Positions 62,404 through 63,038 of a stretch of DNA of 64,000 nucleotides are shown in pieces; within the stretch, counting starts at the first letter, position 1; every line of letters starts with the position of its first letter. Under the pieces are notes generated by a model, which made no database searches, was not told the origin of the DNA, and saw only the letters and a program-made list of their open reading frames with translations. The stretch spans positions 17,980,001 through 18,044,000 of the forward strand of contig OZ024757.1 in assembly GCA_964016885.1 (NCBI GenBank). Reading direction: 5' to 3'. The DNA comes from Eledone cirrhosa. Taxonomy: Eukaryota. Made by a program: the position numbers and the translations under genes.

Positions 62404-62813
62404 ATAGGAACGAGTAGGACCGCGACGGTTGAGCTCAAGCCGTTTCGACGGCTAATTCTGGACTGAATTAGCCGTCGAAACGGCTTGAGCTCAGCCGTCG
62501 GGGTCCTACTCGTTCCTATTACCCAGTCTACTACCCTAAGTATTGAGTACTTTGGTGCGTTATGGTCCACCTGGTTCCTTACCACATTTCCTTCGTTATA
62601 TATATATATATATATATATATATAGGAACGAGTAGGACCCCGACGGCTGAGCTCAAGCCGTTTCGACGGCTAATTCTGGACTAAATTAGCCGTCGAAACG
62701 GCTTGAGCTCAGCCGTCGGGGTCCTACTCGTTCCTATTACCCAGTCTACTACCCTAAGTATTGAGTACTTTGGTGCGTTATGGTCCACCTGGTTCCTTAC
62801 CACATTTCCTTCG

Positions 62814-62848
<35 letters not shown>

Positions 62849-63035
62849 AACGAGTAGGACCCCGACGGCTGAGCTCAAGCCGTTTCGACGGCTAATTCTG
62901 GACTGAATTAGCCGTCGAAACGGCTTGAGCTCAGCCGTCGGGGTCCTACTCGTTCCTATTACCCACTCTACTACCCTAAGTATTGAGTACTTTGGTGCGT
63001 TATGGTCCACCTGGTTCCTTACCACATTTTCTTCG

Positions 63036-63038
<3 letters not shown>
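62404..63038 (+). mobile_element. Three tandem ~195-bp fold-back units (62404-62598, 62622-62816, 62844-63038) separated by short (TA)n
   Basis: Each unit is a ~116-bp palindrome plus an ~80-bp tail and contains a hammerhead 3' half GAAAC-ggct..agcc-GTC. Confidence 0.88.

What the first reader, a model, noticed from the sequence alone, without database searches (positions are those of the whole stretch)
62404..63038. Tandem (TA)n-spaced fold-back elements that keep only the cleavable half of a hammerhead ribozyme
Seen: each ~195-bp unit reads gacggctaattc-tggact-gaattagccgtc GAAA cggct-tgagctc-agccg TC ggggtcc, i.e. stem II, GAAA, stem III, a GUC site and the stem I 3' strand. Where CUGANGA should lie, the sequence continues as the reverse complement of the 3' half, giving a ~55-bp-arm hairpin centred on the stem II loop. 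The family also occurs dispersed at 16596, 54812 and (partial) 56501, always next to (TA)n. Established: Penelope pLTRs and retrozymes carry type I hammerheads. Inference: this is a non-autonomous Penelope-dependent hairpin element that is amplified, or repeatedly generated, without its own catalytic strand. It could be cleaved in trans, or act as a dsRNA/siRNA source.
Basis: partly seen in the sequence, partly recalled or inferred. Interest (0 to 1): 0.8.

Follow-up and report, generated by a model that had tools for sequence, protein, structure and literature searches.

The report
Penelope retrotransposon end stubs forming hairpins
These three tandem 193-base hairpins with half a hammerhead ribozyme are real, and they are likely dead, cut-short tail ends of a Penelope-like jumping gene whose mirror-image arm likely forms anew at each insertion into TA repeats, a known layout rather than a new kind of element.

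Summary
In detail: three tandem units with 54-55-bp arms, a 77-nt tail and (TA)n spacers, three dispersed copies, a hammerhead 3' half (7 of 20,000 shuffles) and no CUGANGA. The layout (inverted arm, direct arm, tail on one side, in (TA)n) is the published Penelope-like insertion layout. Three other families in this window show it. One (13678-13841) is a hairpin centred on helix II without CUGANGA, and its relative at 20156 has the whole ribozyme. Both outer ends are fixed, but the centre differs at all 3 hairpin loci, so the hairpins are likely made anew at each insertion, with copying stopping in helix II. The triplet is likely a local duplication. Cleavage in trans is unlikely (81 kcal/mol to open, about 32 regained). 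Not shown: this family's own CUGANGA or its autonomous parent; one read subfamily lacks the core where expected. No RNA evidence was obtained. New member of a known kind, probably in an octopus; interest 0.3.

The parts
62379..62406 (.). (TA)n run left of unit A; likely the original target microsatellite
62404..62596 (+). Unit A: inverted arm 62404-62458 (two changes that break pairing), loop, direct arm 62465-62519, tail 62520-62596
62622..62814 (+). Unit B: same layout, one base different at the junction
62844..63036 (+). Unit C: same layout, perfect 55-bp arms
62844..62904 (-). Inverted, tail-less arm of C including the 6 loop bases (the loop is the reverse complement of the bases that precede the direct arm in non-inverted copies); outer end fixed at (TA)n
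   Evidence: table 7: loose ends before 62905 in X4, X9, X18; 2,460 X18 reads and 50 X1 contigs run into (AT)n behind the equivalent place 62959
62905..62916 (+). 3' strand of hammerhead helix II (inferred); its native 5' partner is missing from the window copies
   Evidence: X4 record 9 goes on to a stretch that can pair with 8 of 9 of these bases (read by eye)
62917..62946 (+). Hammerhead 3' half: GAA 62917-62919, helix III 62920-62938 with palindromic loop, GTC site 62937-62939, helix I 3' strand 62940-62946
62960..63036 (+). 77-nt tail present on one side only; carries a GTATTGAGTAC motif shared with the tail of family K
63037..63066 (.). (TA)n run right of unit C
54813..55014 (-). Dispersed copy D, 91% identical; different junction (the direct arm is the longer one)
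16597..16754 (-). Dispersed copy E; third junction; 37-nt deletion in the tail-bearing arm
56503..56629 (-). Dispersed copy F, 89% identical; direct arm plus tail only, starting inside the helix II 3' strand
13678..13841 (+). Comparator family K, copy 1: hairpin centred on hammerhead helix II (13720-13732), no CTGATGA, 67-nt tail, in (TA)n
20090..20207 (+). Comparator family K, copy 2: short inverted tail piece joined to an arm with a complete hammerhead (CTGATGA at 20156)
14275..14510 (+). Comparator family M: 63-bp inverted arm ending just past the GAAA complement; direct arm has CTGATGA at 14410
28861..29437 (-). Comparator family N: about 256-bp arms, complete hammerhead in both (29120 minus, 29239 plus), about 61-nt tail, in (TA)n
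22670..24061 (+). 5'-truncated Penelope-like element in (TA)n with a 290-codon frame (C-terminal part, endonuclease-like motif read by eye) and a hammerhead core at 23816; shares its last 24 nt with family N; no DNA match to the family in question

Best explanation
Each unit is likely a dead, stub-sized insertion of the hammerhead-bearing 3' end of a (TA)n-targeting Penelope-like retrotransposon, whose mirror arm is likely built anew at each insertion rather than copied from a hairpin master. Inferred steps: (1) the element's protein nicks both strands of a (TA)n run; (2) it primes two cDNAs on uncleaved RNA from two fixed starts, one at the tail end and one 77 nt further in; (3) one or both cDNAs stop in the 3' strand of a long helix II, short of CUGANGA; (4) the two ends are joined head to head, giving a hairpin with a variable centre and a tail on one side; (5) one such insertion was later duplicated twice in place through its (TA)n flanks. 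Shown: fixed outer ends, variable centre, non-inverted upstream sequence in reads, the same layout in three other families of the window, and an intact/half pair in family K. The half ribozyme is predicted to be locked in the hairpin and inactive.
For: Layout equals the published one: inverted 5'-truncated copy plus tail at one end, (TA)n targets (PMC8557442; PMC3846280). In vitro, an Anolis element cuts and extends both strands from two adjacent internal starts that bound the tail, and uses unprocessed RNA (PMC11167929). Junctions differ at 3 of 3 hairpin loci, and the tail-bearing arm starts in or just inside the helix II 3' strand at 4 of 4 loci. In one search, all 15 joints shown (66 more not shown) leave the left arm at 62891-62906 and re-enter at 62934-62998; loose ends before 62905 in X4 (140 nt), X9 (42 nt) and X18 (995 reads) are non-inverted. 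Family K copy 1 has this layout without CTGATGA, and copy 2 is 46 of 48 identical with CTGATGA in place. K and H tails align better than 4,972 of 5,000 shuffles (28 reached the score; pair picked by eye). Families M and N show longer versions. A, B and C differ at 3-4 of 194 places and share one junction within 1 nt.
Against: No CUGANGA and no coding parent was seen for this family: loose ends are cut at 30 letters. One X18 subfamily (1,592 reads, loose end before 62909, agreement 0.72) shows CTAATAC, 3 of 6 core letters, where the core would fall by my register. 13 of the 15 joints shown have unknown letters between, and the reference arm ends at 62904, which itself favours joints there. Deletions at a palindrome centre after insertion could also vary the junctions. 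The tail peptide did not match the N-termini of 41 related proteins (220 of 500 shuffles as good). Pfam found no family in the window's own Penelope-like frame. The directly retained half folds almost equally well into a hairpin that buries GAAA.
Confidence: 0.68

Rival explanations
1. Same origin, but the mirror arm is made by snap-back: a single tail-primed cDNA folds on itself in helix II, copies itself, and is resolved at the fixed inner site by the endonuclease.
For: Self-priming was proposed from junction palindromes in rotifer elements (PMC3846280). K copy 1 is centred on the native helix II, and copy D has a longer direct arm with a 3-nt match at the junction; both fit. X9 record 12 has a palindromic centre.
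Against: In A/B/C, in K copy 2 and in the joints the tail-less arm is the longer one, so it holds bases that the tail-primed cDNA lacks.
Confidence: 0.15
2. One reading: a short non-autonomous RNA that starts in helix II, lacks the catalytic strand, is mobilised by a Penelope-like protein in trans, and may be cleaved in trans or feed dsRNA pathways.
For: The family is very abundant in organism A (20,183 of 16,285,364 contigs in X1; 24,455 of 12,467,656 RAD records in X18). All 4 loci stop in the same zone, which run-off at a short RNA's 5' end would also give. One read subfamily lacks a clear core. Non-autonomous derivatives of these repeats are proposed in 10.64898/2026.07.22.740005.
Against: Junctions are not shared; non-inverted upstream sequence exists; three other families give such stubs with whole ribozymes. 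Exposing the half ribozyme in unit C costs 81.4 kcal/mol against 13.7 + 18.3 from perfect helices; the core is unpaired with probability under 0.003. The cost falls to 10.0 only if a transcript lacks the inverted arm.
Confidence: 0.1
3. A MITE- or Helentron-like DNA element whose GAAA-hairpin-GUC is chance.
For: Short, abundant, both outer ends fixed; the word ACGGCT/AGCCGT recurs, so hairpins are cheap here; the tail holds a loose direct repeat of the arm end.
Against: Ends are not inverted repeats (10 of 30 identical) and there is no CTRR end (that hallmark is recalled); centres vary; half motif 7 of 20,000; the sister family K has a complete hammerhead.
Confidence: 0.04
4. The triplication alone is an assembly artefact.
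For: Hairpins in microsatellites are hard to assemble (PMC8557442); no long read or contig spanning the array was examined.
Against: The three units differ pairwise at 3, 4 and 3 of 194 places and in spacer length; position 123 groups A with B against C, D and E.
Confidence: 0.05

Closest known systems
Insertion layout of endonuclease-bearing Penelope-like elements: inverted 5'-truncated pLTR, direct pLTR, one-sided tail (PMC3846280; PMC8557442; PMC8969392)
   Same: Head-to-head arms, tail on one side, palindromic junction, microsatellite target, no visible target duplication.
   Different: Whole insertion is 193 nt with no coding DNA; tail is 77 nt against the 30-40 nt described; both arms stop before CUGANGA.
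Poseidon element of Anolis (PAc) in vitro (PMC11167929)
   Same: Two fixed copying starts bounding a tail, both strands extended, AT-rich target, uncleaved RNA as template.
   Different: Different host and probably clade; joining of the two cDNAs head to head is my inference and was not shown in the parts of that paper I read.
Hydra-clade Penelope-like elements (PMC8557442 supplement)
   Same: (TA)n targets; hammerheads with a formed 3-4-bp helix III; a TGAGYA motif after the ribozyme in 3 of the 5 3' ends I saw.
   Different: No match of the probes tried to the listed octopus Hydra or Naiad consensus; helix III loop is longer; the clade is a weak lead only.
Animal non-LTR retrozymes (PMC4209133 for the motifs; 10.64898/2026.07.22.740005)
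   Same: Tandem units of about 200 nt with hammerhead parts and a palindromic loop III.
   Different: Units have no complete ribozyme, are hairpins, and are separated by (TA)n; they fail that preprint's definition of a full motif in consecutive units.

Membership tests
Penelope-like element insertion | Inverted 5'-truncated copy joined head to head with the direct copy | tested here: met
   5 of 6 copies have both arms
Penelope-like element insertion | Tail on one side only, both outer ends fixed | tested here: met
   77-nt tail in 6 of 6 copies; fixed inner end in 2,460 reads
Penelope-like element insertion | Variable 5' truncation | tested here: met
   3 of 3 hairpin loci differ; joints
Penelope-like element insertion | Microsatellite / AT-rich target | tested here: met
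   copy F on one side only
Penelope-like element insertion | Complete type I hammerhead in the parent repeat | tested here: inconclusive
   3' half and a likely native helix II partner seen; CUGANGA not seen; one subfamily has 3 of 6 core letters; met for sister family K
Penelope-like element insertion | Autonomous parent with RT and GIY-YIG frame attached to this end | not testable with these tools
   no genome held; scans of prokaryote and metagenome collections empty
Non-LTR retrozyme | Complete hammerhead in each of two or more tandem units | tested here: not met
   no CTGANGA in 6 of 6 copies
Non-LTR retrozyme | Circular RNA and self-cleavage | not testable with these tools
   no RNA run was laid
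MITE / TIR DNA transposon | Terminal inverted repeats at both ends | tested here: not met
   10 of 30 end bases match
MITE / TIR DNA transposon | Target site duplication | tested here: inconclusive
   cannot be read inside (TA)n
Helitron / Helentron | CTRR 3' end (recalled hallmark of Helitrons) | tested here: not met
   unit ends TCCTTCGT
Helitron / Helentron | Subterminal inverted repeats with a linked Rep/helicase parent (recalled) | not tested
   only a loose arm-to-tail likeness noted by eye

The most novel reading that the evidence does not exclude
A short, core-less RNA that begins in hammerhead helix II is a SINE-like parasite of octopus Penelope elements: it has shed the catalytic strand, is copied by the host element's two-start mechanism, and has written many thousands of perfect 55-bp hairpins into (TA)n runs, a genome-wide pool of dsRNA substrates for editing or silencing.
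Probability: 0.12. Interest if true: 0.6.

Novelty: new member of a known kind. Interest (0 to 1): 0.3.

Why it matters
As read here it is ordinary debris of a known class of element. Its modest value: one 64-kb window holds four families caught at different truncation depths, which gives genomic support for the two-start copying seen in vitro and suggests helix II of the hammerhead is a common stopping point. It also warns that a 'half ribozyme' in such a hairpin is a by-product of insertion. If a core-less master RNA did exist, it would be a new kind of Penelope parasite and an abundant dsRNA source.

Tried and rejected
Whole genome not held. Rfam gathering scan: 0 matches. Exact-pattern scans: 0 in metagenome contigs, 0 in prokaryote genomes. 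The upstream motif seen in reads is not in the window: 2 weak matches against 12 expected by chance. No RNA holder listed; this is not evidence either way. The 7,232 X18 molecules ending at 62906 were rejected as a biological end: the place is the start of an AATT word in a RAD library (enzyme recalled as MluCI); for the same reason X18 allele shares at 62895 and 62908 are biased, and I dropped an idea that the window copies carry a minority allele. Depths are not copy numbers. Tail as the N-terminus of the parent's protein: 3 of 5 listed variants after the ATG are silent, but the shuffle test failed (220 of 500), and failed for family N as well (178 of 500; pairwise E 0.12), so it is rejected as evidence. 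The element at 22670-24061 is not the parent: no DNA match. Octopus Naiad and Hydra consensus sequences: probes did not match (line breaks could hide a match). The octopus repeat paper's one supplement holds no consensus library; that library and the preprint's supplements, which I could not see, may already list this family. My strict hammerhead scan missed the cores at 14410 and 23816 that the looser pattern found. Scan look-ups by sequence, by place and by the longer word list were empty. The parent's helix II was judged by eye, not folded.

Full report
Observation. The sequence is as described. Units A (62404-62596), B (62622-62814) and C (62844-63036) lie 218 and 222 nt apart between TA runs of 28-32 nt. 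Each has arms of 54-55 bp (96-100% complementary) and a 77-nt tail on the right. Unit B folds at -127.2 kcal/mol, and 0 of 200 shuffles fold as well. The direct arm carries C-GAA, a 6-bp helix closed by GTC, and GGGGTCC; this pattern arose in 7 of 20,000 shuffles at 6 bp and 512 of 20,000 at 3 bp (a pattern chosen after the fact). None of 6 copies has CTGANGA within one mismatch upstream. Copies D (54813-55014), E (16597-16754) and F (56507-56629) are confirmed. Rfam gives no match.

Host. No genome was held. A frame at 22675-23547 has its best named hit in Octopus vulgaris at 58% identity, so the host is probably an octopus. A relative of that hit carries a GIY-YIG domain above the Pfam cut-off and a weak RT match (P0081); the window's own frame got no Pfam family.

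The centre is not fixed and the visible stem II is not native. In A and C the inverted arm is 6 nt longer than the direct arm; in D the direct arm is the longer; E has a third junction; F has no inverted arm and starts inside the helix II 3' strand. I laid 4 of the 20 listed runs (17 of which hold the stretch) on unit C. Organism A gave 20,183 of 16,285,364 contigs (X1) and 24,455 of 12,467,656 RAD records (X18); X4 and X9 gave 3 and 5 contigs. Loose ends before 62905 end in TTTAGTCCA in X4, X9 and 995 X18 reads, so the loop bases belong to the arm and the unfolded element goes on with other sequence, 140 nt of it non-inverted in X4. X4 record 9 reaches a stretch reading TCGGCTATTT in element orientation, which can pair with 8 of 9 bases of the retained strand: the native helix II is likely long, with about 30 nt inside (read by eye). 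The tool prints only 30 letters, so what lies upstream of it, where CUGANGA should be, was not seen. Against my reading, a subfamily in 1,592 X18 reads shows CTAATAC at the place where I would expect the core, 3 of 6 letters, at agreement 0.72. The inverted arm's outer end is fixed: 2,460 reads and 50 contigs run from it into (AT)n. All 15 joints shown (66 not shown) leave the left arm at 62891-62906 and re-enter at 62934-62998; 13 of these have unknown letters between, and the reference itself ends there, so they are weaker than the window copies. Only 22 loose-end rows were shown, 421 were not.

Internal controls. A self-comparison of the window found further inverted pairs. Family K at 13678-13841 has the same layout: (TA)n, a palindrome of about 100 bp centred on a hammerhead helix II, no CTGATGA, a 67-nt tail, (TA)n. 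Its relative at 20090-20207 matches at 46 of 48 bases and has CTGATGA directly before that helix. The K and H tails share GTATTGAGTAC; 28 of 5,000 shuffles aligned as well (pair picked by eye). Family M (14275-14510) has a half motif in the inverted arm and the core in the direct arm. Family N (28861-29437) has whole motifs in both arms and shares its last 24 nt with the coding element at 22670-24061. So the window shows a series of truncation depths, and the finding is the shortest.

Mechanism. Published elements have an inverted 5'-truncated copy and a one-sided tail and often target (TA)n (PMC8557442, passages; PMC8969392, passages). Junction palindromes were read as self-priming in a rotifer (PMC3846280, passages and Discussion). 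A purified Anolis element extends both strands from two starts that bound the tail and does not need ribozyme cleavage (PMC11167929, parts 1-2 of 4). Two cDNAs joined head to head explain all layouts seen; snap-back of the tail-primed cDNA explains D and K copy 1 but not A/B/C or K copy 2, where the tail-less arm is longer. The copies keep bases 5' of the GTC site, so the template was uncleaved RNA (inference). Stopping in helix II is inferred from 4 of 4 loci of this family and from K and M; run-off at a short RNA's end and later deletions at palindrome centres are not excluded. A, B and C differ at 3, 4 and 3 of 194 places, share a junction within 1 nt, and A and B share one change against C, D and E, which fits local duplication through the (TA)n flanks and speaks against an artefact; no long read was examined.

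Function. In unit C the core and both partner strands are unpaired with probability under 0.003; forcing the substrate fold costs 81.4 kcal/mol, and perfect helices I and II return 13.7 and 18.3. Cleavage in trans is therefore unlikely unless a transcript lacks the inverted arm (cost 10.0). A 55-bp hairpin could be a dsRNA substrate if transcribed (general knowledge); this was not tested.

Comparison and novelty. It works like, and is best filed as, the stub of a Penelope-like insertion; the parent's full ribozyme and coding frame remain untested. It is not a retrozyme by the definition in 10.64898/2026.07.22.740005 (part 1 of 5), and not a TIR element. Palindromic loop III is typical of these ribozymes (PMC4209133, parts 1-2 of 4). 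A Hydra-clade parent is a weak lead from tail motifs in the PMC8557442 supplement (part 2 and searches; passages). Penelope-like elements cover 6.83% of the O. vulgaris genome in 190 families (PMC13282606, passages and supplement search); its library was not visible and may hold this family. Six paper searches showed no report of octopus half-hammerhead hairpins, but the library lacks most subscription papers. Earlier AI notes of this scan describe similar stubs in other animals (8 of 35 shown); they are not evidence, I did not check them, and they suggest the pattern is common. One of them places ends upstream of the core rather than in helix II.

Verdict. Real, explained by a known class of element, with a small new point about helix II as a stopping zone. 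New member of a known kind; interest 0.3.

Noticed in passing
window 13678-13841 and 20090-20207: Family K: a half-hammerhead hairpin and an intact-hammerhead relative; in copy 1 the direct arm's GAAA is also changed to GTAA.
   Followed up: yes
window 28861-29437: 516-bp palindrome (98.4%) with a complete hammerhead in each arm and a 61-nt tail whose frame opens with ATG for 29 codons.
   Followed up: partly
window 22670-24061: 5'-truncated Penelope-like element with two cysteine clusters before the endonuclease motif (Neptune-like, by eye); best named hit Octopus vulgaris, 58% identity, E 1.2e-74.
   Followed up: partly
window 14410, 38895, 56169 (minus): Family M: CTGATGA, a long AT-rich helix II, then GAAATGCGCATA; three copies.
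   Followed up: partly
window 55132 (minus), 32627 (minus), 55368, 56372: Another hammerhead-like family next to (TA)n, one copy abutting copy D; carries a motif like the H/K tail motif.
   Followed up: partly
window 6088, 51805 (minus), 19288 (minus), 19932 (minus): Further single hammerhead-like motifs from the scan; 19288 has a helix II region of about 50 nt.
   Followed up: no
window 25537-28699 (minus): A broken LINE with endonuclease and RT frames (RVT_1, E 1.1e-22) lying between (TA)n runs and abutting family N.
   Followed up: no
window 60570-60686: A 98-bp imperfect palindrome at the start of a 32-bp satellite array (38 copies, 60673-61888).
   Followed up: no
window 63140-63490, about 51950-52130, about 56650-56730: SINE-like repeats (likeness to octopus SINEs is recalled, not tested); one adjoins copy F where its upstream part would be.
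   Followed up: no
window 62910-62925: The helix II 3' strand can pair with the helix III 5' strand over 6 bp and bury GAAA in a 4-nt loop; this fold is the lowest-energy one of the direct arm and could be an off-state of the parent ribozyme.
   Followed up: partly
window 29000-29360, 39771-40767, 10420-11252, 50995-51566: Minisatellite arrays of 71, 33 and 141 bp; the paired AT-rich words at 29000 and 29327 belong to the arms of family N.
   Followed up: no
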